64,000 nucleotides of DNA, taken from Paraspadella gotoi. Taxonomy: Eukaryota > Animalia > Chaetognatha. The translations under genes were made by a program, and so were the position numbers. The stretch lies in assembly GCA_051294375.1 (NCBI GenBank), contig CM119265.1:5863730-5927729 (forward strand), in the 5' to 3' direction. The notes under the pieces were generated by a model that worked only from the letters and a program-made list of their open reading frames with translations, made no database searches and was not told the origin of the DNA. This document shows positions 10,846 through 33,182 of the stretch, one piece after another. Within the stretch, counting starts at the first letter, position 1, and each line of letters starts with the position of its first letter.

Positions 10846-12652
10846 TGAGTCGTTTTCGTCACGATGGCGTTTCGTTACTATTTCTTTTCTTTTTTTAATG
10901 TTTTCTTGTCACTCCACCATTCCACCGGTATGAACAAGCAACTTAAAAATTATTTAATATTTATTCATTTAATAAACAAAGCTATTGGACACTGGACAGG
11001 CTAAGTTAATTTGTTTTGGGAACTCGTGGTGTTTTTTTGTTGTTTTTTTCTTTTGAGTGTGTCGTTTGTAATTTTTTTATCAGTAGAAAAGAAGAAAACA
11101 GAAGAGCAGTCCGAAGACGATCTTAAAAAATGGCGCCGAAACTGAACATGGAATCTGAAAGGAATCAGGGACGACGACGAAGAGCGACGACGAAGACGAA
11201 TGAGAAAAGAGGATTATTGGAATTGTAACTCATTGGTGACTTCAAACGAAATGACTGGATATGAAGATTCTATTGAGAAGGCGGATTTACTGAAACGCTC
11301 GCCGTCCTACTCACCAGCGGCATCTCTCTCTCTCTATCCATCTCTCTCTCTCTCTCTGCTCTCTCTCCTCTCTCTCTCATCTCCTCTCTCTCTCTCTCTC
11401 TGCTCTCTCTCTCTCACACACACCACAGCTGTCCTTTAAGGCTTTATGCGGTCATTGTCTCCGGCTGCTTTTTACATCCGGCGATCTCGGGAGCGAGACT
11501 TACATTTTTTTCCTTTTTTTGGTCAAATCTTTTTGCCTGCGAGTTTTGTTTATTGTTTTCGCCGTCGCGCTGCTGTCAAACGTCGCGGCTGTTGTTTTTC
11601 TGGTTTGATTTATCGCGCAAGCCGTATACCTTGATGCGAGAACACTTTACTACAAATAGTGAGAGAGAAACGAAGAACGAGGAAAAGGAAAAAAGACATA
11701 GCATTAAGGGATAGTAAGACTGAGACAGCTACACGATAGAAGAGAGAAGAAGAGAGAGACTGACCTAAACCTGATGAGAGAAGATGAGAGACGACGAGAG
11801 AAGAGAGAGAAAATAAAACATTACCGGTATGTTCTATTTGGTGATCACCGCGCATCCAGTTTGATTCAATTAGCGATATTTTGTTCAACTTTACAGAACA
11901 GATGGAATTAAGTCACCAGAGTCGGATCCAAAAATCATTTCGGACGCAAATTTATGATAAAATCCAAAACGTTTTTAAAGTAGATGACCTTTTTACAAGT
12001 TTATCGCAAGTGGTTTAATCACTCACTCAATCATTCATCATTAATGAATGATTGATAATTCAATCATCAATTAATGAACTTTCTTTTTAGAAATCCCGAT
12101 TTATTCACGACCCCTTTTTTCACCCCCCCCCCTCAAATTCAGCGTTCGGAGAAATTCGCGACTTTCACCTATTGTCCCGCAGCCCCGCCGCCTCCAATCC
12201 GGTGTCCAACAGGGATCGCGACTTCGGGTAATTCACAATTTAAAATATTGAATTAAAATTTAATTTAAAAGTAATATAACTTAAAGAAATATGCGTCATT
12301 TATTCAATTAGCTATCTGGCTTCCTAACTTTGCACTAATATAATGCTATACAATAGAATGTGATGTAAAGTAATGTTATTTTTAAAATTGAAATTGGTAC
12401 CAATATAGGAATATCTATCATTTATTAGGTAAGCTTTCTGGCATCCTGACTTTGCCTTGATATAATGTACTTTACATTACAATGGAATGTAATGTTAAGT
12501 AATGTAAACGAGCCCTTTTGTACTTAAATCGTCTTAGCCCTGTTATAATGCACTTAACGTACATTACAACGGAATGTGATTGTAAGTATTGTAATGGGGC
12601 CCTATTGTCCTTGAACCGAAATGCCGACTTTCTCATCCCTTACCCTCTCCAG

Positions 12653-12826
12653 GCGCGGACCTTACCCCCGGCGCCATCCCCACCTCCTGCGGTGCCATCT
12701 TTCTCAAGGACGACGACGTGATCAACTCGATGGCGCTGACGTCGGCGCCGCCCAACGCCGAGTCGCGGCTCCTTGGCTTCAAGCGGATGGCCAACGCCCT
12801 CTGCATGAAGGATACCGAGGGAAAGG
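12653..12826 (+). CDS. Internal coding exon (174 nt, phase 1-1) of an unknown protein: ADLTPGAIPTSCGAIFLKDDDVINSMALTSAPPNAESRLLGFKRMANALCMKDTEGK
   Basis: Polypyrimidine acceptor tctcatcccttaccctctccAG at 12651-52 and donor GTGAGT at 12827. The frame is open with C/G-ending codons, and the exon is a GC-rich island in AT-rich flanks. This frame is absent from the ORF track. Confidence 0.75.
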
Positions 12827-13892
12827 GTGAGTCCGCCTGAGGCTGCAGCGCGAGATTTCGATTGTGAAATTGGAAAGTGAAATCTAAAATACGAGGATTG
12901 AAATTACGATATCATGAATGTATAAAGTACAATGTTCATTAAACCAACTATAAGTTAAAAACCCGAGTGATTTCGTATTAAAATATGATTTTATTCTATC
13001 AAGGAAATCTCCTAGAAAAATAAATTGTTAGTATTACATTCGTATTTATCAAAAATATTTTTTTATTTATGTTGTCCTCAACTATGTAAACAAAATAATT
13101 GTTTTTGATAAATTGCCCAAAACACAACGAAAAGAAAGCAACAAATATACTATATCATATTATTTAAAACCCGAAGGCGGGCTTTGGAAAATCTTTATAA
13201 AGATATTGATATTGATAACGTTGTGGCTGGACAAGAAAAAAAAATTGCTCGAAGGTAGAATCTGAAACAGGAAAGAAACTTGTAAAGAAAATTTTTAAAA
13301 AAGGAGAAAAAAAAATCTATACTAAGAAAAGTTTTGTACATTTTTCTCGATGAAGAAAACTCACTCTCTTTCTCTCCCTCTAAAAAAAAAACCCCGAATT
13401 TTTATTTTTATTCGACTCGTAAGAATTGTATCAGTGTTGGTATTAGCTTTGTCGTCAAACTTGTTTCTCTTTTCAAATACGAAAATTTTAAACGGTAACT
13501 TTGTTCTCTCGTTAGATTCGCAATATATTTATCGGGCGAATCCCTTTTTTTTTCTTCAATATTGTTTTTCCATTGTATTCGGGGTTTTTTTTTTTTTGGT
13601 TTTGTTTCGCTTCGCTCCAAAGTTTTTCTTTGCTTTGCTTTACTCGGCTTGATCGGGTTTCCATTTTTTTCTGACTTTTTTTCTTTCCTTTTCCAATGTT
13701 TTCTTTTCTTTTCTCTTCTTTTCCTCCTCCTCCCTTTTCTCTCCTTTCTGTTCTTTACTTTTGTCTTCTTCTATTTCCTTCTCAAATTGCCCCCTTTAAA
13801 ATTTATTCACTTCGTCGCCTTCACGCGGTGTAGTGTTACAGCTCCTCAGTGGCGACAGGGGCTTTGCGAGTTCCGCTCATAATTTCTGGCAA

Positions 13893-13928
<36 letters not shown>

Positions 13929-13995
13929 NNNNNNNNNNNNNNNNNNNNNNNNNAGAGAGAGATAAAAAACGGGCGACAGAGAGAGAGAAGAGAGA

Positions 13996-14044
<49 letters not shown>

Positions 14045-14139
14045 AGAGAGAGAAGAGAGAGAGAGAGAGACAGATCGAGTGAAAAGCTATAGACCCCGAA
14101 TAAAATGGATTCGGTTTCCCTCCATGTATTCCGCCTCTC

Positions 14140-14564
14140 GAGAGAATTTTTATCCAATCAACTGACTCTCGCGACGACGAGCACGAACGAAGGCGAAATC
14201 GTGGAAGTCCGGCAAAGAGGAAGATAAATGCGAGAGAAGTTGCGACGCAGACTTATACGTTTGAAAGGATTGCGATGCCGGTGCAAAGTGTATTAAACGT
14301 GAATCATGAAGACATCCCAAATACGTACAGCAGTAGTTCAGTCAAGGAAATTGATAAAAAGGTAGCCGTAGGAATTCGGCGCGCTCGTTGCATACAGTGT
14401 ATCGTGGTCAATCTCTTGAAACGCCTTCGTCGAAACCGACGCGAAGTAGCCGACAAAAAGAGTTCCCTTTGGCCGACGCGAAGATGACCACGTTGTCGGT
14501 AAAAACTCCCACTCAAAAGATTGGAGATCTCCCCACGCGACCGAGAACGAGGAGCTGTCATTAA
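14140..14564 (-). CDS. Duplicate copy of the 27537 exon
   Basis: Reverse complement; ORF 14304..14768 shows the fragments EISNLLSG, LTTIHC and YVFGM. Confidence 0.5.
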
Positions 14565-14896
14565 CTGCGGCATAACGAACCGAGATGGCCGGAGAATAAT
14601 ACTCGGGATATGATTTCGACGCTCCTGCTTTGGGGAATTCGAAGAAACAAATCTCTGAGGAAGATCTTGGCTGGTTTTGGACATTAGTGCAACAGAAATG
14701 TTTTTTTTTATAAAAAAAGGAAACAGAAATTCAAGTGTAACAAATATGCTGAAATTATTTAATTTCATTCAATAAACGAGGATATGTGGACTAAAATCCA
14801 CACCGTTCATGCAGGCGGCCAATTGGTGGCCGGACAGGCAAGTCATTCGCCTCCGCCAACCCTACAGGTCCGGGGTTCTTAGCCCTGTGGTCGCCT

Positions 14897-14975
14897 AGGC
14901 AGTTGAGAGGGACGGGCGCTTAAACCCCGCCTGTAACGCGGTGTTACAGCCTGATCCGAAGCTCAGGGACTGCTT
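14897..14975 (+). ncRNA. Candidate twister ribozyme, circularly permuted type P5
   Basis: Order: AGGCAGTT (P5 5') - gag - AGG (P2') - GA - CGG - gcgct (reduced P1) - TAA - (a)CCC - C - GC - CTGTAAC gcggt GTTACAG (P3) - CCTGA TCCGAAGC TCAGG (P4 with U-NNN-AAGC loop) - GACTGCTT (P5 3'). Loop CCG is complementary to the CGG after the conserved GA (T1), and GC/GC can form T2. P2 has one mismatch and P1 is minimal. Confidence 0.72.
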
Positions 14976-15547
14976 ATATATGAACGGTTCTGTCACTAAA
15001 CCATAACAATTTTCAACTGTTTCTTTTGAGAGATAGTCTTGCCCCTTGAAATTGAACGAATTAAGGTCGGCAAGTCTTTCCGTCCCGTCTTACAAAGATG
15101 AATAACTGACCTTTCAAATCAAAAATATCGGCACTAATAGTTTACTAACTCGCACTTAACTTTAGTCATCAATTAAATAATTATTATATTAGTCTAGATC
15201 GTTTCATTAAATTTTGACACAAGTACTGGAAATCAACGAAGGTATATGAAGAATTAAACCTTGGTTTACGTTTATATTCGCATTAAAATTCATTTAAATT
15301 CAAAAACCCTCGAATGAAACGAATATATTTCAAATTATATAAAGATTTAATAAAATAATAAATTATAAATTTTTAATAAAATTATTAAAACTAAACGAGA
15401 AGCACCGGAGAACGAAACGTACAGTACGTGCGATTTGTAACGATCGGCCGTACGGTCGATGCAAATGCGGGGTTTCCGATCGAAGAATTTGAGACGCGAA
15501 ATCGAAAACATTTCGTGTTCGACGTTTTGACCTCATGAGAGTTGAGA

Positions 15548-15855
15548 AGAGACGTGGGAGAGGAAGACGTTTGGGAACGGGAGACGTTTGGGAGAGGAAG
15601 ACGTTGGAGAGGGAGACGTTGGAAGAGGGAGACGTTGGGAGTAGGAAGACATTGGGAGAGGGAAGACGTTGGGAAGGGGAGGCATTGAGAATTGAGAGGG
15701 AGACGTTGGAGAGAGGGGACGATTATTGGGAGAAGGGGAGACAGCTTGGAAGAGGTGACGTTGGGAGAGGGAAGATATTGGGAGAGGAGACGTTGGGGAA
15801 GAGGTAAACATTAGGATAGGGAAGACGTTGGGAGAGGAGACGTCGGGGAGGGAGA
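15548..15855. repeat. Degenerate 16-18-bp minisatellite (GGGAGAGGGAGACGTT)n
   Basis: Recurring GACGTTGGGAGAG; reverse copies at 26270-26582 and 21965-22030. Confidence 0.85.
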
Positions 15856-16160
15856 GAGAGAGGAACGTGGAGATGAAAAATGAAGGAGGATGACGGGAAG
15901 AGAAATAAAAAAGACATATTGACGTCAAACAAAAGATGAAAAAAAATTGAATGAGAAGAAAAAAAGGAAGGAAATCTCATCGTCGTTTTGTCGTCGTCGC
16001 CAAGAAAAAATTTGCATATGAAAAAAAACCTCTCGGATAAAACGTAAGAAAAGAAGATCTTCAATTCTGCCTCGAAAAACATTAAAAAATAGCAATATTC
16101 CATTAAAAAAATCAAAGTCCCCAGAAAAAAAAATAGGATGACGTTCGCTTTCTTCTCTCT

Positions 16161-16225
<65 letters not shown>

Positions 16226-17029
16226 CTCTCTCTCTCTCTCTCTCGCCCTCTCTCTCTTGTTTCGTCGTTCGTGTCGACGAAGGTCTTTTTGTTTTTCTTC
16301 TTTTTTTCTTCATTTATAGAGTTTGCAGGCGACGTCACTCGGAATTTGTTTAACTCAATCGCCGTCATTAGCTGGCCGGTTTTGAAATGGCGTTGCCGTA
16401 TCGTTTGCTCGGTCCACATCTGTAAAACTTGAGTCATAAAATTTAATTCTCAGAAACGGCCTTCAATGTTTTATAATATTTTCAACAATGTCAACAAATA
16501 TCTCATAAAAATAATATACAACGTAGCTTTCATTATCCATATTAATTTTTGCTTGCCGTGACCGTCCATCCCTGTTAGCTACCTCCTCCTCCTCCTCCTC
16601 ACTCCTTCTCGGTAGTGTGAACGAATGACTCGTCAATACAAACGCAAAAAAAAAAAAGTCAAGAAAACTTTTTTTTTCGTAATTGAAAAGAAAAAAAAAA
16701 GCGTTTTCGAACGTTACAAACGAAAACGCGACGAACGACGAACGACGACGACGATAACAACGAAGCCCCACGATACACTAACGCGGCAACCAACGATCAT
16801 CACGACGCAACGACCACGACCAACGACCAAAAGGCAAAAAACTAAACGAACCATCAAACGACATAACAAGGAAACAACGGAAGGGACACAAAAAACCTGG
16901 GTCGCAATCGCCAGTTTTGAAACCAAACAAATCATAGCGACACCACAAAAACGAGGAAAAGAAAAAGTAAAAAAAAACTGGGACGACGCTGGGGAATGAT
17001 GATTTCTTTTTTTTTAGGAAAGAGAGATT

Positions 17030-17705
17030 TTTTTTTTCACTTTTTTTCCTCGTTTTGTGTCGCTATGATTTGTTTGGGTTCAAACTGGCGATTGGACCCA
17101 GTTTTTGTGTCCCTTCCCGTTGTTTCCTTGTTTATGTCGTTATGGTCGTTAGTTTTCTTTGCCGTCTGTTGGTCGATTGGTCGGTTGGTCGTTGCGTCGT
17201 GGTTCGTTGGTTTCGCCCGCGTTAAGTTGTTATCGTCGGGGCGGCCATTGTTGTTATCGTCGTCGTCGTTCGTCGTCGTCGGTTTTCGTTGTAAGTTCGA
17301 AAACGTATTTTTTTTTTCTTTTCATTACGAAAAAAAAAAGTTTTCTTGACTTTTTTTTTTTTGCGTTTGTATTGACGAGTCATTCGTTTCACACTACGAG
17401 AAGGAGGAGGAGGAGGAGGAGGAGTAGTAACAGGAGGACGGTCACGCAAGCAAAAATTACAATGATAATGAAAGTAACGTGTATATTATTTTTTATGATG
17501 ATATTTGTTGACATTGTTGAAAATTATAAAGACATGAAGGCCGTTTCTGGAATTAAATTTTATGACTCAAGTTTTACGAGTGACCGAGGCAACGATACGC
17601 AACGCCATCAAAACCGCAGCAATGACGGCGATTGAGTTAAACAAATTCCGAGTGACGTCGCCTGCAAATCATAAATGAGAAAAAAAGAAGAAAAACAAAA
17701 GACCT
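17030..17705 (+). repeat. Fold-back copy of 16280-16975
   Basis: Reverse complement immediately adjacent to its template; also matches 20835-21525 and 25165-25845. Confidence 0.93.
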
Positions 17706-18213
17706 TTCATCATTCGTCGTCGTTGTCGTCTAGGCATAATCATCCAGCCCTTTCCCATCCTTTGCCAAAATCGACGGTGGTCGTTCGTCATGATGGCCGT
17801 CGTTACCATCTTCTTTTTTAGGACCGCGATGAACAAGCAACAGAAAAATTATTCAATATTTTATTCATTTTAATAAACAAATCTATTGGATACCTGGACA
17901 GGCTATGTTAATTTGTTGGGGAACTTCGGGTGTTTTTTTTTTTTTTTTTTTGAGGTGTGTTCATTTTGAAATTTTTATCAGTAGAAAAGAAGAAAACAGA
18001 AGAGCAGTCCAAGACGATCTTATAAAATGGCGCCGAAACTGAACATGGAATCTGAAAGGAATCAGGGACGACGACGAAGACGACGACGAAAGACGAATGA
18101 GAAAGAGGATTATTGCGAATTGTAATCATTGGTGACTTCAAACGAAATGACTGATAGAAGATTCATTGAGAAGGCGGATTTACCTGAAACGCTCGCCGTC
18201 CTACTCACACGCA

Positions 18214-18303
<90 letters not shown>

Positions 18304-19444
18304 CCACAGCTGTCCTTTAAGGCTTTATGCGGTTCATTGTCTCCGGCTGCTTTTTACATCCGCCGATCTCGGAGAGACGAGACTTACATTTTTTCCTTTT
18401 TTTGGGTCAAATCTTTTTTTGCGAGTTTGTTTTTGTTTTCGGCGCGTCGCGCTTGTCAACGTCGCGCTGTGTTTTTCGGTTTGATTATCGGAAGCCGTAT
18501 ACCTTGAGGAAAACACTTCGAATCAGATAGCATAGATAGAGATGAGAGCAGAGAGAGAGAGAGAGAGAAGAACGATGAGAGAGAGGAGACGACTGAGAGA
18601 AGAGAGAGAAAATAAACATTACCGGATGTTCTATTGTGATCACCGGATCCAGTTTGTTCAATTAGATAATTTTTTCAACTTTAAGAACAGATGGAATTAA
18701 GTCCACCAGAGTTCGGATCCTAAAATCATTTCGGACGCAAATTTATGATTAAAATTCCAAAACGTTTGCTAAGTTAGATGACCTTTACAGTTTATCGCAA
18801 GTGGTTTAATCACTCACTCAATCATTTATCATTAATTGAAATTGATGATAATTCAATCATCAATTAATGAACTTTCCTTTTAGAAATCCCGATTTATGTC
18901 ACGACCCCTTTTTTCACCCCCCCCCTTCAAATTCAGCCGTTCGGAGAAATTTTCGCGGCACTTTCACCTATTGTCCCGCCAGCCCCCGCCGCCTCCAATC
19001 CGGTGCTCCAACAGCGATCGCGACTTCGGGTAATTCACAATTAAAAATGAATTATAATTTAATTTAAAGTAATATAACTTTAAAGAAGAAAATATCGCGA
19101 CATTTATCAATTAGCTATCTTGGCTTTTCCTAACTTTGCCACTAATATAATGCTTATACAATAGAATGTGATGTAAAGTATTGTTATTTAATTGAAATTG
19201 GTTACCAATATAGAGAAGTTATCAATTATTACATTAGGTAAGCTTTCTGGCATTTCCTGACTTTGCCTGATTATAATGTACTTTACATTACAATTCGGGA
19301 ATGTAATGTTAAGTAATGTAAAACGAGCCCTTTTGCTACTTAAAATCGTCATTTACAAACGGAATGTGATTGTAAGGTATTGTAATGGGGCCCTATTGTC
19401 TTTGAACGAAATGCCCGACTTTCTCATCCCTTAACCCTCTCCAG

Positions 19445-19631
19445 GCGCGGACCTTACCCCCGGCCGCCATCCCCACCTCCTGCGGGTGCCATCTTTCTCA
19501 TGACGACGGACGTGATCAACTCCGTGATGGCGCTGACCGTCGGGACGACCCAACGCCGAGTCGCGGCTCCTTTGCTTCAAGCGGCGTATGCCAACCGCCG
19601 CTCTGCATTGAAGGGATACCCGAGGGAAAAG
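19445..19631 (+). CDS. Frameshifted duplicate copy of the 12653-12826 exon
   Basis: Same acceptor and GTGAGT donor; ORF 19500 shows DVINS/MALT. Confidence 0.55.
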
Positions 19632-20750
19632 GTGAGTCGCCTGAGGCTGCAAGCGCGAGATTTCGATTGTGAAATTTGGAAAGTGAAATCTAAAATTAAC
19701 GAGGATTGAAATTAACGATTATTCTGAATGTATTAAAGTACAATGGATCATTAAACCAACTATAAGTTAAAAACCGAGTTGATTTCGTATCTAAAATATG
19801 TGATTTTATTCTTCAAGGAAAATCTCCTAGAAAAATAATTGGTTCATGTATTACATTTCGTATTTTATCAAAAATATTTTTTTATTTATGTTGTCCTCAC
19901 TCCGATCTAAACAAAAAATTGTTTGTTGACAATTGCCCAAAACACAAACGAAAAGAAAGGCAACAAAGTTATACTATATCATATTATTTTTTAAAACCGA
20001 AGGCGGGGCTTTGGAAAATCTTTATAAACGATTATTGATATTTGATAACGTTTGTTGCTGGACAAGAAAAAAAAAATGCCTCGAGCGTAGAATCTGAAAC
20101 AGGAAAGGAAACTTGTAAAAAATTTTTATTAAAATGGAGGAAAAAAAAATCTATACTTAAGAAAAGTTTTGTTTACGATTTTTTCGCATGAGAAAGAACA
20201 CTCTCTTTCTCTCCCTCTAAAAAAAAAACCCCGAATATTTTATTTTTATTCGACTTCGTAAAGAATTGTATCAGTGTTAGTTATTAGCTTTGTACGTCAA
20301 ACTTCTTTCTCTTTCAAATACTAAAATTTTTAAACGGTAACCTTTTGTTCTTCTTCGTTAGATTCGCAATATATTTTATCGGGCGAATCCCTTTTTTTTT
20401 TCTTCAATATTGTTTTTCCATTGTATTCGGGGGTTTTTTTTTTTTGGGTTTGTTTCGCTTCGCTCCAAAGTTTTCTTGCTTTGCTTTACTCGGCTTGATC
20501 GGGTTTCCATTTTTTTCTGCACTTTTTTTTCTTTCCTTTTTCCAATGTTTTCTTTTCTCTTCTCTTTTTTCCTCCTCCTCCCTTTCTCTCCTTTCTGTTT
20601 CTTACTTTGTCTTCTTTCTTTCCTTCTCAAAATTGCCCCTTAAAATTTATTCACTTCGTCGCCTTCACGCGCTGTAGTGTTACAGCCTCCTCAAGTGGCG
20701 ACAGGGGGTTTGCGAGGGTTCCCGGTTTCATAATTTCTGGCAATATCTCT

Positions 20751-20786
<36 letters not shown>

Positions 20787-21579
20787 CTCTCTTTCCTAAA
20801 AAAAAAAGAAATCATCATTCGCCCAGCGTTCGTCCCAGTTTTTTTTTTTTCACTTTTTTCCTCGTTTTTGTGTTCGCTATGATTTGTTTGGTTTCAAACA
20901 CTGGCGATTTGCGACCCCAGTTTTTGTGTCCCTTCCCGTTGTTTCCTTGTTTATGTCGTTGATGGTTCGTTAGTTTTCTTGTCTGTTGGTCGATGGTCGT
21001 TGGTCGTTGGTCGTATGGTTCGTTGGTCTTCGCCGCGTTCAAGTTGTTACGTCGCTTGATCGTCGTCGTCGTCGTCGTTTCGCCGTTTTCGTTTGTAAGT
21101 TCGAAACGTTTTTTTTTTCTTTTCAATTACGAAAAAAAAAGTTTTCTTTGACTTTTTTTTTTTGCGTTTTAATTGACGAGTCATTCGTTCACACTACCGA
21201 GAAGGAGGAGGAGGAGGAGGAGGAGTAGCTAACAGGGATGGACGGTCACGGCAAGCAAAAATTAATATGGGATAATGAAAGCTACGTGTATATATTTTTT
21301 ATGAGATATTTGTTGACATTGTTGAAAATTATTAAAACCATTGGAAGGCCGTTTCTGGAATTAAATTTTATGACTCAAGTTTACAGAGTGGACCGAGCAA
21401 CGATACGCAACGCCATTCAAAAACGCAGCTAATGACGGCGATTGAGTTAAACAAATTCCGACGTGACGTCGCCTGCAATACTCTATAAATGAAGAAAGAA
21501 AAGAAGAAAAAACAAAAGACCTTCGTCGACACGAACGACGACAAACAAGAGAGGAGAGAGGGAGAGAGAGATGAGAGAG

Positions 21580-21638
<59 letters not shown>

Positions 21639-22536
21639 AGAGAGAGAGAGAGACCGAGAAGCGNNNNNNNNNNNNNNNNNNNNNNNNNACGTCATCCTAT
21701 TTTTTTTTCTGGGACTTTGATTTTTTTAATGGAATATTCTATTTTTTAATGTTTTTCGAGGAGATTGAAGATTCTTCTTTTCTTACGTTTTATCGAGAGG
21801 TTTTTTTTCATATGCAAATTTTTTCTTGGCGACGACGACAACGACGATGAGATTTTCCTTCTTTTTTCTTTCTCATTCAATTTTTTTTTCATCTTTTGTT
21901 TGACGTCAATATGTTTTTTTTTTCTCTTCCCGTCATCCTCCTCATTTTCATCTCCACTTCCTCTCTCTCCCTCCCCGACGTCTCCCTCTCCCAACGTCTC
22001 CCTATCCTAATGTTTACCTCTCCCAACGTTCATCATTCGTCGTCGTTGTCGTCTAGGCATAATCATCCAGCCCTTTCCCATCCTTTGCCAAAATCGACGG
22101 TGGTCGTTCGTCATGATGGCCGTCGTTACCATCTTCTTTTTTAGGACCGCGATGAACAAGCAACAGAAAAATTATTCAATATTTTATTCATTTTAATAAA
22201 CAAATCTATTGGATACCTGGACAGGCTATGTTAATTTGTTGGGGAACTTCGGGTGTTTTTTTTTTTTTTTTTTTGAGGTGTGTTCATTTTGAAATTTTTA
22301 TCAGTAGAAAAGAAGAAAACAGAAGAGCAGTCCAAGACGATCTTATAAAATGGCGCCGAAACTGAACATGGAATCTGAAAGGAATCAGGGACGACGACGA
22401 AGACGACGACGAAAGACGAATGAGAAAGAGGATTATTGCGAATTGTAATCATTGGTGACTTCAAACGAAATGACTGATAGAAGATTCATTGAGAAGGCGG
22501 ATTTACCTGAAACGCTCGCCGTCCTACTCACACGCA

Positions 22537-22626
<90 letters not shown>

Positions 22627-23767
22627 CCACAGCTGTCCTTTAAGGCTTTATGCGGTTCATTGTCTCCGGCTGCTTTTTACATCCGCCGATCTCGGAGAGA
22701 CGAGACTTACATTTTTTCCTTTTTTTGGGTCAAATCTTTTTTTGCGAGTTTGTTTTTGTTTTCGGCGCGTCGCGCTTGTCAACGTCGCGCTGTGTTTTTC
22801 GGTTTGATTATCGGAAGCCGTATACCTTGAGGAAAACACTTCGAATCAGATAGCATAGATAGAGATGAGAGCAGAGAGAGAGAGAGAGAGAAGAACGATG
22901 AGAGAGAGGAGACGACTGAGAGAAGAGAGAGAAAATAAACATTACCGGATGTTCTATTGTGATCACCGGATCCAGTTTGTTCAATTAGATAATTTTTTCA
23001 ACTTTAAGAACAGATGGAATTAAGTCCACCAGAGTTCGGATCCTAAAATCATTTCGGACGCAAATTTATGATTAAAATTCCAAAACGTTTGCTAAGTTAG
23101 ATGACCTTTACAGTTTATCGCAAGTGGTTTAATCACTCACTCAATCATTTATCATTAATTGAAATTGATGATAATTCAATCATCAATTAATGAACTTTCC
23201 TTTTAGAAATCCCGATTTATGTCACGACCCCTTTTTTCACCCCCCCCCTTCAAATTCAGCCGTTCGGAGAAATTTTCGCGGCACTTTCACCTATTGTCCC
23301 GCCAGCCCCCGCCGCCTCCAATCCGGTGCTCCAACAGCGATCGCGACTTCGGGTAATTCACAATTAAAAATGAATTATAATTTAATTTAAAGTAATATAA
23401 CTTTAAAGAAGAAAATATCGCGACATTTATCAATTAGCTATCTTGGCTTTTCCTAACTTTGCCACTAATATAATGCTTATACAATAGAATGTGATGTAAA
23501 GTATTGTTATTTAATTGAAATTGGTTACCAATATAGAGAAGTTATCAATTATTACATTAGGTAAGCTTTCTGGCATTTCCTGACTTTGCCTGATTATAAT
23601 GTACTTTACATTACAATTCGGGAATGTAATGTTAAGTAATGTAAAACGAGCCCTTTTGCTACTTAAAATCGTCATTTACAAACGGAATGTGATTGTAAGG
23701 TATTGTAATGGGGCCCTATTGTCTTTGAACGAAATGCCCGACTTTCTCATCCCTTAACCCTCTCCAG

Positions 23768-23952
23768 GCGCGGACCTTACCCCCGGCCGCCATCCCCACC
23801 TCCTGCGGGTGCCATCTTTCTCATGACGACGGACGTGATCAACTCCGTGATGGCGCTGACCGTCGGGACGACCCAACGCCGAGTCGCGGCTCCTTTGCTT
23901 CAAGCGGCGTATGCCAACCGCCGCTCTGCATGAAGGGATACCGAGGGAAAGG
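23768..23952 (+). CDS. Frameshifted duplicate copy of the 12653-12826 exon, collinear with the downstream exon at 27537
   Basis: Identical to the 19445 copy up to 23931. Confidence 0.55.
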
Positions 23953-25931
23953 GTTGAGTTCGCTTGAGGCTGCAAGCGCGGAGATTTTCGATTGGCTGAA
24001 ATTTGGAAAGTGAAATCTAAAATACGAGGATTGAAATTAACGAGTTATCATGAATGTATTAAAGTACAATGGTCATTAAACCAACTATAAGTTAAAAACC
24101 CGAGTGATTTCGTATTAAAATATGTGATTTTATTCTTCAAGGAAATCTCCTATGAAAAATATATTGGTTATGTATTACATTTCGTTATTTTATCAAAAAT
24201 ATTTTTTTATTTATTTAGTCCTCACTATGCTAAACAAAAAATTGTTTGGTTGACAATTGCCCAGAAACACAACGAAAAGGAAAGCAACAAACTTATACTA
24301 TATCATATTATTTTAAAACCCGAAGGCGGGCTTTGGAAAATCTTTATAAAGATATTGATATTTGGATAACGTTTGTTGCTGGACGAAGAAAAAAAAAATG
24401 CCTCGAAGCGTAGAATCTGAAACAGGAAAGAAACTTGTAAAAAATTTTTATTAAAAAGGAGGAAAAAAAATCTATACTTAAGCCAAAAGTTTTGTTACAT
24501 TTTTTTCGCATGAAAAAATCACTCTCTTTCTCTCCCTCTAAAAAAAAAACCCCGAATTTTTATTTTTATTCGACTTCGTAAGAATTGTATCAGTGTTAGT
24601 ATTAGCTTTGTCACGTCAAACTTTTTCTCTTTCAAAATACTAAAATTTTTTAAACGGTAACTTTTGTTCTCTCGTTAGATTCGCAATATATTTATCGGGC
24701 GAATCCCTTTTTTTTTTCTTCAATATTGTTTTTTCCATTGTATTTCGGGGTGTGTTTTTTTTTTGGGTTTGTTTCGCTTCGCTCCAAAGTTTTCTTGCTT
24801 TGGCTTTACTCGGCTTGATCGGCGTTTCCATTTTTTTCTGACTTTTTTTCTTTCCTTTTTCCATATGTTTTCTTTTCTCTTTCTTTTTTCCTCCTCCTCC
24901 CTTTCTCTCCTTTCTGTCTTCTTACTTTGTCTTTTTCATTTCCTTCTCAAATTGCCCCTTTAAAATTTATTCACTTCGTCGGCCTTCACGCTGCTTGTAG
25001 TGTTACAGCTCCTCAAGCTGCGACAGGGGCCTTTGCGAGGGTTCCGCGGTTTTCCATAATTTCTGGCAATATCTTCTCTCTCCTCTCTCTCTCTCTCTCT
25101 CTCTTCTCCTCTCTCTCTTTCCTAAAAAAAAAAGAAATCATCATTCGCCCAGCGTTCGTCCCAGTTTTTTTTTTTTCACTTTTTCCTCGTTTTGTGTGTC
25201 GCTATGATTTGTTTGGTTCAAAACTGGCGATTTGGGACCCAGTTTTTGCTGTCCCTTCCCGTTGTTGCCTTGTTATGTCGTTTATGGTCGTTAGTTTTCT
25301 TCTCTGCGGTCGATGGTCGGTGGTCGTGGTCGTGAGTCGTTGGTGTTCGCGCTTTCAGTTGTATGTGGGGGCCTTGTTCGTCGTCGTCGTTCGTCGTTCG
25401 TCGCGTTTTCGTTGTAAGTTCGAAACGCTATTTTTTTTTTCTTTTCATTACGAAAAAAAAAGTTTTCTTGACTTTTTTTTTTTCGTTTTGATTGACGAGT
25501 CATTCGTTCACACTACGAGAAGGAGGAGGAGGAGGAGAGGAGTAGCTAACAGGGAGGACTGGTCACGGCAAAGCAAAAATTACATATGATAATGAAAGCT
25601 ACGTTGTATATTTTTTTATGATGATATTTGTTGACATTGTGTGAAAATTATAAAGACATTGCAAGGCCGTTTCTGAGAATTAAATTTTATGACTCAAGTT
25701 TACGATGTGACCGAGGCAAACGATACGCAACGCCATTCAAACAACGCCAGCTAATGACGGCGTTGAGTTAAACAAATCCGAGTTGACGTCGCCTGCAATA
25801 CTCTATAAATTGAAGAAAGAAAAGAAGAAAAACAAAAGACCTTCGTCGACACGAACGACGAACAAGATGAGAGAGGGGAGAGAGAGAGAGAGAGAGGATG
25901 AGAGAGAGATAGAGAGAGAGAGAGCAGAGAT

Positions 25932-25962
<31 letters not shown>

Positions 25963-27123
25963 TGAGAGAGAGAGAAGCGAAACGTCATCCTATTTTTTTT
26001 TCTGGTGACTTTGATTTTTTTAAACTGGAATATTCTAATTTTTAATGTTTTTCCGAGGCATGATTTGAAGATCTTTCTTTTCTTACGTTTTATCGAGAGG
26101 TTTTTTTTCATATGCAAATTTTTCTTGGCGACGACGACAACGACGATGAGATTTTCCTTCTCTTTTATATCTTCTCATTCAATTTTTTTTCATCTTTTGT
26201 TTGGACGTCAATATGTTTTTTTTTCTCTTCCCGTCATCCTTCCTTCATTTTCATCCTCCACTTCCTCCTCTCTCCCTCCCCGACGTCTCCCTCCCCAAGA
26301 CGTCTCCCTATCCTAATTTTACCTCTTCCCCAACGTCTCCCGTTCCCAATATCTCCCTCTCCCAACGTCACCTCTTCCAAGCGTCTCCCTTCTCCCAATT
26401 TCAACGCCTTCATCTCACCTCATCCCAAACGCGTCTTCCCTCTCCCAATGTCATCACGTCTCCCTCTTCCCACGTTCTCCCTCCCAATGTCTTCCNNNNN
26501 NNNNNNNNNNNNNNNNNNNNTCTCCCAACGTCTCCCTCTCCCAACGTCTCCCTCTCCCAAAGTCTTCCTCTCCCACGTCTCTTCTCACTCTCATGAGTCA
26601 AAACGTCGAACACGAAATGTTTTCCGATTCGCGTCTCAAATTCTTCGATCGGAAACCCCGCATTTGCATCGACGACGGCCGACGTACAAATCGCACGTAC
26701 TGTACGTTCGTTCTCCGGTCTTCTCTTTAGTTTTAATAATTTATTAAAAATTTATAATTTATTATTTATTATAATCTTTTATAATTTGAAATATATTCGT
26801 TTATTCTGAGGGTTTTTTGAATTTAAATGAATTTTAATGCGAATAAAACGTAAACCAAGTTAATTCTCATTATACCTCGTGATTTCCAGTACTTTGTTCA
26901 AAATTTAATGAAACGATCTAGATAATATAATAATATTTAATTGAGATAAAGTAAGTGCGAGTTAGTAAACTATTAGTGCGATATTTTTGATTGAAGGTCA
27001 GTTATCATCTTGTAAGACGGACGGAAGACTTAGCCGACCTTAATTCGTTCAATTTCAAGGGGCAAGATATCTCAAAAGAAACAGTGAAAATTGTTATGTG
27101 TTAGTGACAGAACCGTTCAATAT

Positions 27124-27200
27124 AAGCAGTCCCTGAGCTTCGGATCAGGCTGTAACACCGCGTTACAGGGGGGTTAAGCGCCCCGTCCCTCTCAACTGCT
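27124..27200 (-). ncRNA. Second assembled copy of the twister candidate
   Basis: Reverse complement of 14897-14975. It keeps GGGACGG, TTAACCCC, P3, the TCCGAAGC loop and P5, but lacks the G of the T2 GC (probable read deletion). Confidence 0.65.
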
Positions 27201-27536
27201 AGGCGACCACAGGGCTAGAACCCCGGACCTTAGGGTTGGGAGGCGAATGACTTGCTTCCGGCACCAATGGCCGCTGATGAACGGTTGGTGGATTTTAGTC
27301 CACCATCTCTCGTTTATTGAATGAATAAATAATTTCGATATTTGTTGCACTTGAATTTCTGTTTCCTTTTTATAAAAAAAAAACATTTGTTGCACTAATG
27401 TCCAAAACCAGCCAAGACTTCTCCAAGATTTGTTCTTCGAATCCCCAAGAGGAGCGTCGAAATCATATCCGAGTATCCGCTCGGAAGATTCGCTAAACAC
27501 TGATTTATTTCGGCCATCTCGGTTCGTTATGCGCAG

Positions 27537-27950
27537 TTAATGAAGCTCCTCGTTCTCGCGTCGGCGGTGGAGATCTCCATCTTTTTGAGTGGGAGTTTTT
27601 ACCGACAAGTGGTCATCTCGCGTCGGCAAAGGGAACTCTTTTGTCGGCTACTTCGCGTCGGTTTCGACGAAGGCGTTCAAGAATTGACCACCGATACATG
27701 TAATGCAACGAGCCGCGCCTGAATTTCCTCGGCTACCTTTTTATTCAATTTCCTGATGAACTACGTGTACGTATTTGGGATGTTCTTCATGATTTCACGT
27801 TAATACACTTGCACCGGCATCGCAATCCTTCAAACGTATAAGTCTGCGTCGGCAACTTCTCTCGCATTTATTCCTTTGCCGACTTCCGACGATTTCGCCT
27901 TCGTTCGTGCGTCGGCGAGAGTCAGTTGATGGAAAAATTCTCTCGAGAGG
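27537..27950 (+). CDS. Probable next or terminal exon; consensus (V)NDSSSFSVAWEISNLLSGVFTDNVVIFASAKGNSFVGYFASVSTKAFQELTTIHCNATSAPNSYGYLFINFLMNYVYVFGMFFMI...
   Basis: gcAG acceptor at 27535-36. The phase-1 start (TT) completes the G left by the upstream exon to give GTT (Val). The frame was rebuilt by reconciling indels with the copy at 14564-14140(-). The 3' end is uncertain. Confidence 0.55.
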
Positions 27951-28035
27951 CGGAATACATGGAGGGAAACCGAATCCATTTTATTCGGGGATTATAGTCG
28001 AACGGAATAAACGTCTCTCTCTCTCTCTTTCTCTT

Positions 28036-28119
<84 letters not shown>

Positions 28120-28726
28120 CCGTTTTTTGTGCGCATCTCTGGCTCGTGATAACCTTTATTTTTTTTTGTGTTTTTATTTTGGCGACACGAAAAGAGACAA
28201 TCCAAATGGAATTTATGGTAACGAAAACAACGATTCTATGGAAAAATATTTCATGATATTTGAAAAGGTGCTTTTCAATGGAACCAACCATATATTTGGA
28301 GAATACAATTTTTTTCTTCAATACTACTAATTGACTTATTCGATGTTGCCTTTTCTTTTGTCAAGTGTAATAAAGATGGCGACTCGAAACTTAAATTTTT
28401 TTTTTGTTCGATCAAACGAGGGCGCTGCGTGAGAATTTCCGGAAAAAAAAGGGCGGATGGCCGGATGGAAATCGGTTGTGGGTGACTCGTAACTCTTCTC
28501 ACTTTCTCCTCGTAACTGTTCACAACCTCACAACCTCACACCCGAAACTTTTTTTTTCTCTCGAAACCCAAGCCTCTTTTTCTTTCCCCTCGTTTTCTTT
28601 TTTTCCAATTTTTTTGATTTTTTTTTTTTTTTTGCGGTTCTCTTTTTCTTCTATGTCGTTGGTTATTGTCTCCCTCTTTTACTTTCTCTCTTTGTCTTTC
28701 TCTCTAGTTCTTAATATATATCTACA

Positions 28727-32900: not shown

Positions 32901-33182
32901 TACCACCTGTAACGCACTGACACTCGAAAAGCTCATAGTAAGTGGACTAGCAGAAAATTTCATACAGCCCGCTACCCCACTCTCGTAAACCACTACCTCT
33001 GAAGCCATTTAGTAAAAGGTGACAGCAGAAAATTTCATACAGCCTCTGCTACCCACCTGTAACCATACACTCTGAAGCCCATAGTAAAGGTGGCAGCGAA
33101 GAAAAATTTCATAGCAAGCCTCGCTACCACTCTGTAACCACTACATTGCTCTGAAAGCCATTAGTAAGGTTGGACAGCAGAA
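29940..33182. repeat. Tandem satellite, ~40 copies of a ~70-bp unit CAGAAAATTTCATACAGCCTCGCTACCCACCTGTAACCACTACACTCTGAAGCCATAGTAAGGTGGACAG
   Basis: Head-to-tail units counted via CATACAGCC-like anchors. The observed period is ~80 bp because of scattered insertions. There are no unique spacers. Confidence 0.95.

What the first reader, a model, noticed from the sequence alone, without database searches (positions are those of the whole stretch)
14897..14975. Circularly permuted (type P5) twister ribozyme candidate with a compensatory pseudoknot pair
Seen: all twister landmarks are present in permuted order, namely the UAA cleavage motif, N-GC, a perfect 7-bp P3, a 5-bp P4 with loop U-CCG-AAGC, an upstream GA-CGG and an 8-bp closing P5. 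Known: in characterised twisters the three loop bases after the U pair with the three bases after the catalytic GA (CCC/GGG in rice Osa-1-4, CCU/AGG in env22), and here they are CCG/CGG. The TAACCCCGCCTGTAAC..GTTAC core also resembles twisters of animal non-LTR retrotransposons, which as I recall are mostly type P1. Inference: this is a self-cleaving RNA in an uncommon permutation with a nearly absent P1, antisense within an intron. The P2 mismatch may be a homopolymer read error or real decay.
Basis: partly seen in the sequence, partly recalled or inferred. Interest (0 to 1): 0.9.

Follow-up and report, generated by a model that had tools for sequence, protein, structure and literature searches.

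The report
Twister-like ribozyme inside abundant short repeat
A 79-base stretch of a very abundant short repeat in a eukaryotic, probably animal, genome carries most sequence landmarks of the self-cutting twister ribozyme in rearranged order, so it is predicted, but not shown, to cut its own RNA, and the standard ribozyme models do not recognise it.

Summary
The motif is in the sequence as described, at 14897-14975(+) and again at 27200-27124(-). The two copies lie in a 1.65 kb inverted duplication of an indel-ridden assembly, so they are not independent.

For a twister:
- The stretch UAA-P2-GC-P3-P4/L4 aligns base for base with genuine Schistosoma-type type-P1 twisters.
- The upstream GA-CGG, a partial P2 strand and the closing P5 occur together in 59 of 300,000 shuffles.
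- Short-read contigs of one public DNA run confirm the core. They show it belongs to a very abundant repeat family (2,248 contigs laid).

Against a twister:
- No Rfam twister model reports a match, even when 6.7-bit matches are listed.
- P1 is replaced by a 5-6 nt self-complementary linker.
- P2 is weak: 2-3 Watson-Crick pairs plus a C.A mismatch.
- The twister fold is not the minimum-energy fold of copy A.
- Relaxed ARAGORN can also draw the stretch as a tRNA-like cloverleaf.

A tRNA-like head lies directly upstream and a T4 run 38 nt downstream. The unit therefore looks like a SINE.

Verdict: a twister-derived module, a new variant of a known kind. Cleavage is untested. I put about 45% on the family being catalytically competent, and less on this copy.

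The parts
14802..14811 (+). 5' strand of an outer helix that pairs with 14979-14988 and encloses the head plus the twister-like module
   Evidence: Minimum-energy folds of both copies. The two copies are one duplicated segment, so this is not independent support.
14814..14896 (+). tRNA-like head: 7-bp acceptor-like stem GCGGCCA/UGGUCGC and a T-arm-like GGGGUUCUUAGCCC
   Evidence: The mascRNA-menRNA (tRNA-like) model scores 14.9 bits, E=2. ARAGORN finds nothing at default settings. At -ps80 it calls 14814-14896, against 25 of 1000 shuffles. The contig letters table 5c include a canonical-looking GGGGTTCGAGCCC.
14897..14904 (+). P5 5' strand (AGGCAGUU); AGCAGU in copy B and in the short-read consensus
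   Evidence: loose-end consensus.
14905..14910 (+). L2 3' side (GA; 14905 is A in 52% of the contig depth laid there, 239 of 460) and P2 3' strand GAGG 14907-14910
   Evidence: table 3; compared with UAAA-gGcg of the Rfam P1 consensus.
14911..14915 (+). L1 3' side GACGG: G14911 is the predicted catalytic guanine, and CGG 14913-15 is the T1 strand
   Evidence: The same position holds GAGGG in Schistosoma-type twisters and GAGCG in L122.
14916..14920 (+). Linker GCGCU in the place of the P1 hairpin. It reads GGCGCU in copy B and in the short-read consensus, which is self-complementary with G.U ends.
14921..14924 (+). L1 5' side UAA(A); predicted cleavage between U14921 and A14922
   Evidence: Position by analogy with UAA in the Rfam consensus and PMC8501958 section 17. 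Cleavage not tested.
14925..14930 (+). P2 5' strand CCCC (CCC in the short-read consensus) and L2 GC (T2 strand)
14931..14949 (+). P3 hairpin: 7 perfect pairs, loop GCGGU
   Evidence: It aligns with P3 of Schistosoma-type twisters. The family variants 14938 G>A and 14939 C>T fall in its loop, and both are CpG sites.
14950..14967 (+). P4 hairpin: 5 pairs, with L4 UCCGAAGC 14955-62 (T1 strand CCG, T2 strand GC)
   Evidence: This is the most abundant part in run X1.
14968..14975 (+). P5 3' strand (GACUGCUU)
14976..15013 (+). Tail of the repeat unit, ending in TTTT 15010-13 (a Pol III terminator-like run)
   Evidence: Contig depth continues to the 14976-15021 bin and is 0 after it. A 577-nt contig (record 7) is laid only over 14924-15011, by the last 87 letters of the contig.
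27124..27200 (-). Second copy of the twister-like module, inside the inverted duplicate 26521-28128

Best explanation
This is one copy (assembled twice) of a very abundant SINE-like repeat whose core descends from a twister ribozyme, and it is predicted, but not shown, to cleave its own RNA between U14921 and A14922.

Shown:
- The unit reads tRNA-like head, then the 3' half of a twister (L2, P2 strand, GA, T1 strand), a 5-6 nt self-complementary linker where P1 should be, then the 5' half (UAA, P2 strand, GC, P3, P4 with L4). A P5 helix closes the module, and a short tail follows, ending in T4.
- The 5' half is homologous in sequence to Schistosoma-type retrotransposon twisters.

Inferred:
- The RNA folds as a type-P5 twister without P1. 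T1 (CCG/CGG) and T2 (GC/GC) would bring L4 onto the UAA/GA loop, so that G14911 and A14922 would do the chemistry.
- The linker GGCGCU pairs with itself. P1 would therefore form only between two units, in trans or between neighbours in a multimeric transcript. Cleavage would then trim such RNAs, as dimeric hammerheads are thought to do in Penelope-like elements.
- This copy may itself be inactive.
For: (1) All landmarks are present at the stated positions.

(2) Window 14921-14968 aligns with L118, L120 and L121, with 28 invariant columns of 76. Rfam scores those loci as type-P1 twisters at 56.3, 48.9 and 70.8 bits. The layout matches the S. mansoni table UAA|CUCC|GC|P3|P4-L4|GUAAA|GGAG|GAGGG (PMC8501958 section 17).

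(3) A 21-base pattern common to both was scanned across three collections. It found 4 places in the prokaryote genome collection, 3 of them these twisters. It found 1 place in the metagenome collection and 0 in viral contigs. The shared sequence is therefore not a common one.

(4) The upstream GACGG within 10 nt of UAA, at least 3 of 4 P2 pairs and a P5 of at least 6 bp occur together in 59 of 300,000 shuffles.

(5) The T1 triplets are complementary here (CCG/CGG), in Schistosoma-type twisters (CCC/GGG) and in L122 (CGC/GCG).

(6) Independent short-read contigs reproduce the core. No variant reaching 10% of depth is listed at the T2 bases, at the first two T1 bases of L4, or in the P3 and P4 stems.

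(7) P1 is dispensable for twister chemistry (PMC5408937, passage).

(8) The minimum-energy fold of copy B contains P3, P4 and P5.
Against: - No Rfam twister model reports a match. This holds on the whole window at gathering score, on 281 and 231 nt at E<=10, and on the 84 nt alone, where matches of 6.7 bits are listed.
- There is no P1 hairpin.
- P2 has 3 Watson-Crick pairs plus C.A in copy A. In copy B and in the short-read consensus it has only 2 plus C.A, or 3 in a register that pairs the presumed catalytic G.
- Copy B lacks the L2 G.
- The nested twister fold of copy A is -19.9 kcal/mol against a minimum of -30.9 for another fold.
- Fold z-scores are modest: -1.8, -2.7 and -1.5.
- RNAcofold dimers pair through P3, not through the linker.
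- ARAGORN -ps80 draws 14897-14976 as a cloverleaf in both copies, against 12 of 1000 shuffles. It does so for 0 of 5 real twisters.
- Conservation within a young repeat family does not show selection. All three variable core positions are CpG sites.
Confidence: 0.45

Rival explanations
1. Relic: the module descends from a twister by duplication and truncation of a type-P1 ribozyme, but it no longer cleaves. It persists as the conserved structural core of a SINE-like repeat, for example as a fold recognised by the partner's reverse transcriptase.
For: The homology is the same as above. P1 is lost and P2 is reduced to 2-3 pairs with a mismatch. No covariance-model match is found. A competing fold is more stable in copy A. 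A CGGG/CCCG-type hairpin that ties up the T1 and P2 strands is predicted in copy B.
Against: The bases needed only for catalysis and tertiary contacts (UAA, GA, the T1 triplets, the T2 GC pairs, AAGC) are all kept. T1 is kept through a change on both sides relative to Schistosoma-type twisters. P1-less twisters cleave in vitro (PMC5408937).
Confidence: 0.3
2. Dimeric tRNA-derived SINE: 14897-14976 is a second degenerate tRNA-like unit. P5 is the acceptor stem, P4 the T arm, and CCGC/GCGG with loop CUGUAAC the anticodon arm. The likeness to twisters is coincidental.
For: ARAGORN -ps80 calls a cloverleaf 'tRNA-Tyr(gta)' in both copies, against 12 of 1000 shuffles, and in 0 of 5 real twisters. 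The unit abuts a first tRNA-like unit of equal size. The loop UCCGAAGC resembles a T loop (consensus recalled). The minimum-energy fold of copy A uses the CCGC/GCGG stem.
Against: - ARAGORN finds nothing at default settings and the Rfam tRNA model reports no match.
- This reading leaves the perfect 7-bp P3 complementarity unexplained.
- It also leaves unexplained the base-for-base match to Schistosoma-type twisters over about 48 nt.
- 86% of the contig depth has A at 14938, which breaks the loop-closing pair of the proposed anticodon stem.
- The T loop would have 8 nt.
Confidence: 0.12
3. Chance resemblance or assembly artefact.
For: The assembly is noisy and the two copies are one duplicated segment.
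Against: Short-read contigs of an independent run reproduce the core, with 2,248 contigs laid on the stretch. The shuffle test gives 59 of 300,000. The pattern is rare in the large collections.
Confidence: 0.03

Closest known systems
Type-P1 twister / T-variant ribozymes at the 5' end of Perere-3 (RTE-clade) non-LTR retrotransposons of Schistosoma mansoni (PMC8501958; abstract and sections 17 and 22 read); 'truncated' twisters at the 5' end of RTE elements (PMC7761336, passage read; cited there as in preparation)
   Same: The sequence is near-identical in UAA-P2-GC-P3-P4/L4. Both are carried by an abundant animal retroelement. In both, P1 is not encoded as a normal internal helix.
   Different: There the 3' half follows P4 (type P1), the flank or target-site duplication supplies the P1 5' strand, and the ribozyme sits at the 5' end of a protein-coding LINE. 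Here the 3' half lies upstream and P5 closes the fold. P1 is a 5-6 nt palindromic linker and T1 is CCG/CGG. The carrier is a non-coding unit of about 210 nt with a tRNA-like head.
Type-P5 twister ribozymes, Rfam RF02684 (examples L122 at 41.7 bits and L123 at 28.4 bits)
   Same: The order of elements is the same: P2 3' strand, GA plus T1, UAA, P2 5' strand, GC, P4/L4. A P5 helix closes the fold.
   Different: The Rfam model has an 8-bp P1 hairpin between GA-T1 and UAA, and a 4-bp P2. The candidate has neither, carries a 19-nt P3, and gets no reported score.
Twister-like fold without a normal P1 in the tails of Naiad-type Penelope-like elements
   Same: P5-type order, P1 replaced by self-complementary letters, no recognition by Rfam, and an abundant retroelement as carrier.
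   Different: No Naiad ORF could be found next to this copy: 38 ORF translations gave no RT or endonuclease family, though indel noise limits that test. Here the neighbour is a tRNA-like head. No shared sequence with those windows was found.
Hammerhead ribozymes in SINE-like Sm-alpha repeats of schistosomes and the minimal, dimer-dependent hammerheads of Penelope-like elements (recalled; the PLE hammerheads are mentioned in passages of PMC8557442 and PMC7761336 that I read)
   Same: A small self-cleaving motif inside a very abundant short retroelement. One helix is too short to form in cis, which suggests action in dimers or multimers.
   Different: A different ribozyme class. Those hammerheads were shown to cleave (recalled, not checked here); this motif has not been tested.

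Membership tests
Twister ribozyme (Rfam clan CL00120: RF03160 P1, RF03154 P3, RF02684 P5) | Match to a family covariance model | tested here: not met
   0 matches at gathering score on the whole window. No twister match at E<=10 on 14800-15080, 27050-27280 or 14895-14978, although matches down to 6.7 bits were listed. Positive controls scored 70.8, 56.3, 48.9, 41.7 and 28.4 bits.
Twister ribozyme | U-A-A on the 5' side of loop L1 (cleavage between U and A) | tested here: met
   U14921 A14922 A14923; U27176 A27175 A27174 in copy B; TTAA in the short-read consensus.
Twister ribozyme | G-A on the 3' side of L1, followed by three bases that pair with the three bases after U in L4 (pseudoknot T1) | tested here: met
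   GACGG 14911-15 and CCG 14956-58. The same rule holds in L118-L121 (GAGGG with CCC) and L122 (GAGCG with CGC). 11% of contig depth has A at 14958; the partner side could not be read.
Twister ribozyme | G-C after P2 that pairs with the G-C ending L4 (..AAGC; pseudoknot T2) | tested here: met
   GC 14929-30 and GC 14961-62. No variant reaching 10% of depth is listed there. Copy B has C for the G, in a noisy assembly.
Twister ribozyme | P4 closed by an L4 loop of the form U-C-C-N-A-A-G-C | tested here: met
   CCUGA-UCCGAAGC-UCAGG, against the consensus cCG-GUCCCAAGC-CCGg.
Twister ribozyme | P2 helix (4 bp in the Rfam models) between L1 and L2 | tested here: inconclusive
   Copy A: CCCC with GAGG gives 3 Watson-Crick pairs and one C.A. 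Short-read consensus and copy B: CCC, giving 2 pairs and C.A, or 3 pairs if the presumed catalytic G is paired.
Twister ribozyme | P1 helix next to the cleavage site | tested here: not met
   Only GCGCU or GGCGCU lies between GACGG and UAA. It cannot form a hairpin but can pair with itself. P1 is reported dispensable in vitro (PMC5408937).
Twister ribozyme | Site-specific self-cleavage | not testable with these tools
   No RNA run was listed, and contigs cannot show RNA ends.
tRNA-derived SINE | tRNA-related head with internal Pol III promoter boxes | tested here: inconclusive
   ARAGORN finds none at default settings. At -ps80 it calls 14814-14896, against 25 of 1000 shuffles. The tRNA-like mascRNA model scores 14.9 bits, E=2. 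The B-box-like GGTTCTTAGCC was judged by eye against a recalled consensus.
tRNA-derived SINE | Short, non-coding, very many dispersed copies | tested here: met
   2,248 contigs of run X1 were laid. Summed depth is about 1.67 million at 14930-14975 against about 80 in the flank 14100-14700. Other copies sit in unrelated contigs of 577 and 6,838 nt. Depth is not a copy number.
tRNA-derived SINE | Target-site duplications and defined ends | not tested
   The two window copies share their flanks. The ends were estimated only from contig depth (about 14800 and about 15011-15021) and from TTTT at 15010-13.
Naiad Penelope-like element tail | Adjacent Naiad ORF (GIY-YIG endonuclease plus reverse transcriptase) | tested here: inconclusive
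   0 of 38 ORF translations between 2344 and 28988 hit an RT or endonuclease family in Pfam. About 12% indels would break such frames.

The most novel reading that the evidence does not exclude
The conserved core of a very abundant animal SINE is a permuted twister ribozyme that has given up its P1 hairpin for a palindrome. It becomes catalytically complete only when two units pair, in trans or as neighbours in one transcript. It would be the twister counterpart of the dimeric hammerheads of Penelope-like elements and Sm-alpha repeats. Cleaved, head-less RNAs would then explain why the core is more than 100 times more abundant than the tRNA-like head.
Probability: 0.25. Interest if true: 0.8.

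Novelty: new variant of a known kind. Interest (0 to 1): 0.55.

Why it matters
Twisters are known in animals mainly as type-P1 ribozymes at the 5' end of RTE-type LINEs. If this motif cleaves, three things would follow:
- It would add a second architecture (P5-permuted, P1-less, possibly dimer-dependent) and a second kind of carrier (a short tRNA-headed repeat).
- It would give one SINE 'core domain' a concrete biochemical activity.
- It would show that the curated covariance models miss a large group of animal ribozymes.

I found no paper that links twisters with SINEs or, in the titles and abstracts listed, with Penelope-like elements. Craig et al. 2021 does not contain the word twister.

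Tried and rejected
- **Whole genome:** none is held for this window.
- **RNA evidence:** no RNA holder was listed for the stretch.
- **Right flank:** the part after 15022 has no contig cover, which I do not interpret.
- **Loose 15-base pattern in viral contigs:** 116 loci; 3 had GTAAC nearby and none was twister-like, so these are chance matches.
- **Strict pattern:**
  - Viral contigs gave 0 places.
  - The metagenome collection gave 1 place, L117, which has no UAA or P4 pairing and no twister match.
  - The genome collection gave 4 places, 3 of them Schistosoma-type twisters and one a chance match (L119).
- **Further diverged copies in the window:** nhmmer and short-word blastn found only the two copies.
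- **RNAcofold of two units:** it did not predict the linker duplex.
- **Earlier notes of this scan:** searches by place and by sequence returned nothing.
- **Type-P1 reading, with the 3' half downstream of P4:** rejected, because no P2 partner or GA-CGG is in register after 14967.
- **Covariance model of my own:** not built, because only two non-independent sequences of the family are available.

Full report
**What is there**

The window reads, from 14897 to 14975 on the + strand:
- AGGCAGU(U), the P5 5' strand;
- GA;
- GAGG;
- GACGG;
- GCGCU;
- UAA(A);
- CCCC;
- GC;
- CUGUAAC-GCGGU-GUUACAG (P3, seven perfect pairs);
- CCUGA-UCCGAAGC-UCAGG (P4 and L4);
- (G)ACUGCUU, the P5 3' strand.

The three bases after U in L4 (CCG) complement the three after GA (CGG). 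The GC that ends L4 complements the GC after the C run.

A second copy lies at 27200-27124(-). Neither nhmmer nor short-word blastn finds further copies in the window.

**The two copies are not independent, and the assembly is noisy**

- The copies sit in a 1.65 kb inverted duplication, 13964-15610 against 28128-26521, at 89% identity.
- Each duplicate starts right after a 25-N gap.
- The window is full of similar tandem and palindromic duplications.
- A 680-nt short-read contig of public run X1, laid on the unique flank 14087-14736, differs by 13 substitutions and 79 gaps. The window therefore carries about 12% indel errors.
- The copies differ from each other mostly by single-base indels.
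- In 14897-14928 the three sources disagree:
  - Copy A has an extra G in P5, one G fewer in the linker, and an extra A and C after UAA.
  - Copy B has C in place of the L2 G.
  - The consensus of the 83 loose contig ends before 14926 (agreement 0.84) reads AGCAGU, then UAA, GAGG, GACGG, GGCGC, UUAA, followed by CCC-GCC of the aligned part.
- From 14926 to 14979 the two copies are identical. The contigs agree with them except at the three sites named below.

**It belongs to a very abundant repeat family**

- 2,248 contigs of X1 were laid on 13964-15330.
- Summed contig depth along the stretch:

| Region | Summed depth |
|---|---|
| flank 14100-14700 | about 80 |
| 14792-14837 | 1,600 |
| 14838-14883 | 10,500 |
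| 14884-14929 | 76,000 (nearly all of it from the last few bases) |
| 14930-14975 | 1.67 million |
| 14976-15021 | 262,000 |
| after 15022 | 0 |

- Depth is not a copy number, but the contrast is more than four orders of magnitude.
- Other copies sit in unrelated contigs. A 6,838-nt contig matches only 14910-14995. A 577-nt contig matches only 14924-15011.
- Only three core positions vary in 10% or more of depth: 14938 G>A (86%), 14939 C>T (40%) and 14958 G>A (11%).
  - All three are CpG sites, so they tell of mutation rather than selection.
  - The first two fall in the P3 loop.
  - The third is the last T1 base.
- The depth upstream of 14926 is low. Either window errors clip the alignments there, or most copies differ or end there. 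I could not tell which.

**Context**

- Directly upstream, 14814-14896 has a 7-bp acceptor-like stem and a T-arm-like hairpin.
  - The tRNA-like mascRNA model gives 14.9 bits, E=2.
  - ARAGORN finds nothing at default settings. It calls the stretch at 80% thresholds, against 25 of 1000 dinucleotide shuffles.
- Downstream, the unit runs to a TTTT at 15010-13, where contig cover ends.
- A 9-10 bp outer helix (14802-11 with 14979-88) encloses head and module in both predicted folds.
- This is the layout of a tRNA-headed SINE of about 210 nt.
- None of 38 ORF translations around it hit a reverse transcriptase or endonuclease family. The indel noise makes that weak evidence.

**Is it a twister? For**

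- A pattern of 21 specified bases, shared by the window and the S. mansoni twister table of PMC8501958, was scanned across three collections.
  - The prokaryote genome collection gave four places. Three are short contaminant scaffolds that carry Schistosoma-type retrotransposon twisters.
  - The metagenome collection gave one place.
  - The viral contigs gave none.
- Rfam scores those three as type-P1 twisters at 70.8, 56.3 and 48.9 bits.
- Window 14921-14968 aligns with them base for base through UAA, P2, GC, both strands of P3, P4 and L4. 28 of 76 columns are invariant.
- The upstream half resembles their 3' half (GU-AA, four purines, GA-GG), one base out of register.
- Given the downstream half, three features occur together in 59 of 300,000 shuffles: GACGG within 10 nt of UAA, at least 3 of 4 P2 pairs, and a P5 of at least 6 bp. 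The descriptor was written after the fact.
- T1 is complementary in all three kinds of sequence: CCC/GGG in Schistosoma-type twisters, CGC/GCG in L122 and CCG/CGG here.
- The review PMC5408937 states that P1 is dispensable for cleavage (passage).

**Is it a twister? Against**

- No Rfam twister model reports a match at any threshold I could set, even on the 84 nt alone, where 6.7-bit matches are listed.
  - The P5 model contains an 8-bp P1 hairpin and a 4-bp P2, and the candidate has neither.
  - That explains the failure but does not excuse it.
- P2 is the weak point.
  - With the short-read consensus CCC, it has two G-C pairs and a C.A.
  - The alternative is three pairs in a register that buries the presumed catalytic G.
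- The nested twister fold of copy A costs 11 kcal/mol more than the minimum-energy fold.
- In copy B the T1 and P2 strands can pair with each other.
- Relaxed ARAGORN draws 14897-14976 as a cloverleaf in both copies.
  - In that drawing P5 is the acceptor, P4 the T arm, and CCGC/GCGG the anticodon stem around CUGUAAC.
  - This happens in 12 of 1000 shuffles, and in 0 of 5 real twisters.
  - That reading leaves the perfect P3 and the match to real twisters unexplained.
  - 86% of family depth has A at 14938, which breaks its loop-closing pair.

**How it would work (inferred)**

- The order of parts is what duplication and truncation of a type-P1 twister would give: the 3' half of one unit, the juxtaposed P1 strands, then the 5' half of the next unit.
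- Juxtaposed P1 strands are by construction a palindrome, and the linker GGCGCU is one, with G.U ends.
- In a single unit P1 cannot form. The module could act as a P1-less twister.
- Alternatively, two units could form a domain-swapped pair with a shared 6-bp P1 and two active sites. The units could be two RNAs, or neighbours in a multimeric transcript.
- Cleavage between U14921 and A14922 would separate the tRNA-like head from the core and tail.
- Reverse transcription of cleaved RNA would give head-less copies. That would fit the great excess of core over head, but other causes fit as well.
- Earlier, unchecked notes of this scan describe a similar P1-less, palindrome-armed twister-like fold in Naiad Penelope-like elements of bivalves.
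  - They gave me the dimer idea.
  - I confirmed only that this linker is self-complementary.
  - No Naiad link was found here.

**Comparison and novelty**

- Known twisters in animal retroelements are type P1 and sit at the 5' end of RTE-clade LINEs (PMC8501958; PMC7761336, passage).
- Type P5 is an established permutation (RF02684).
- What differs here is the combination: P5 order, no P1 hairpin, a P3 of Schistosoma type, and a short tRNA-headed carrier.
- Full-text searches for twister with SINE and retrotransposon (5 papers) found no description of this. Nor did a search for twister with self-cleaving, SINE and tRNA-derived (0 papers).
- A search for twister with Penelope-like gave 17 papers. 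I judged the 15 listed by title and abstract start only, and none describes this.
- I rate it a new variant of a known kind. The probabilities:
  - about 45% that the family's motif is a working ribozyme;
  - 30% that it is a dead relic;
  - 12% that it is a tRNA-derived look-alike.

**Papers: what I saw**

| Paper | What I read |
|---|---|
| PMC8501958 | abstract, sections 17 and 22 |
| PMC5408937 | passages |
| PMC7761336 | passages |
| PMC8557442 | passages |
| bioRxiv 10.64898/2026.07.22.740005 | passages (the word twister occurs 0 times) |
| Roth et al. 2014 | not read; known through the review |
| Work on Sm-alpha hammerheads | not read; recalled |

Noticed in passing
window 10900-28200: The region is a patchwork of tandem and inverted duplications. 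17706-22029 against 22029-26336 is 94% identical. 16280-17706 is a palindrome. 13964-15610 is inverted against 26521-28128. Several segments are bounded by 25-N gaps, and differences are mostly indels. Together with 79 gaps in 650 nt against a short-read contig, this looks like an unpolished long-read assembly with duplicated or folded-back segments, not real biology.
   Followed up: partly
window 30008-33182: A satellite array of about 39 copies of a unit of about 76 nt (72% matches, 22% indels by TRF).
   Followed up: partly
window 15018-15080 (and 27084-27022 on the minus strand): A hairpin just after the repeat unit gives a weak match to the mir-278_2 model (18.8 bits, E=0.17, cut off by the end of the stretch searched). 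It lies in the duplicated segment, outside the part covered by family contigs.
   Followed up: no
L118, L120, L121 (short scaffolds of 668, 351 and 661 bases in assemblies titled Marinifilum breve JC075, Vibrio aquaticus BEI207 and Vibrio sinensis BEI233): Three bacterial genome assemblies each hold a short scaffold with a Schistosoma-type type-P1 twister (Rfam 56.3, 48.9 and 70.8 bits). Downstream of it the three share nearly identical sequence. These are most likely contaminating animal retrotransposon DNA.
   Followed up: partly
window 14802-14811 with 14979-14988: A 9-10 bp helix would close the tRNA-like head and the twister-like module into one domain. The short-read loose-end consensuses keep it with one mismatch.
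   Followed up: partly
window 14926-14930: Family contig depth rises about 1000-fold within a few bases, 4-8 nt 3' of the predicted cleavage site. It could mean copies that start at the cleavage site. It could also be alignments clipped by window errors at 14924-25.
   Followed up: no
L117:112-144 (metagenome contig): The only metagenome place that fits the strict pattern. It has a P3-like hairpin and UCCGAAGC inside a 7-bp outer helix and is flanked by CCCACTACC-type repeats. It has no UAA, no P4 pairing and no Rfam twister match.
   Followed up: partly
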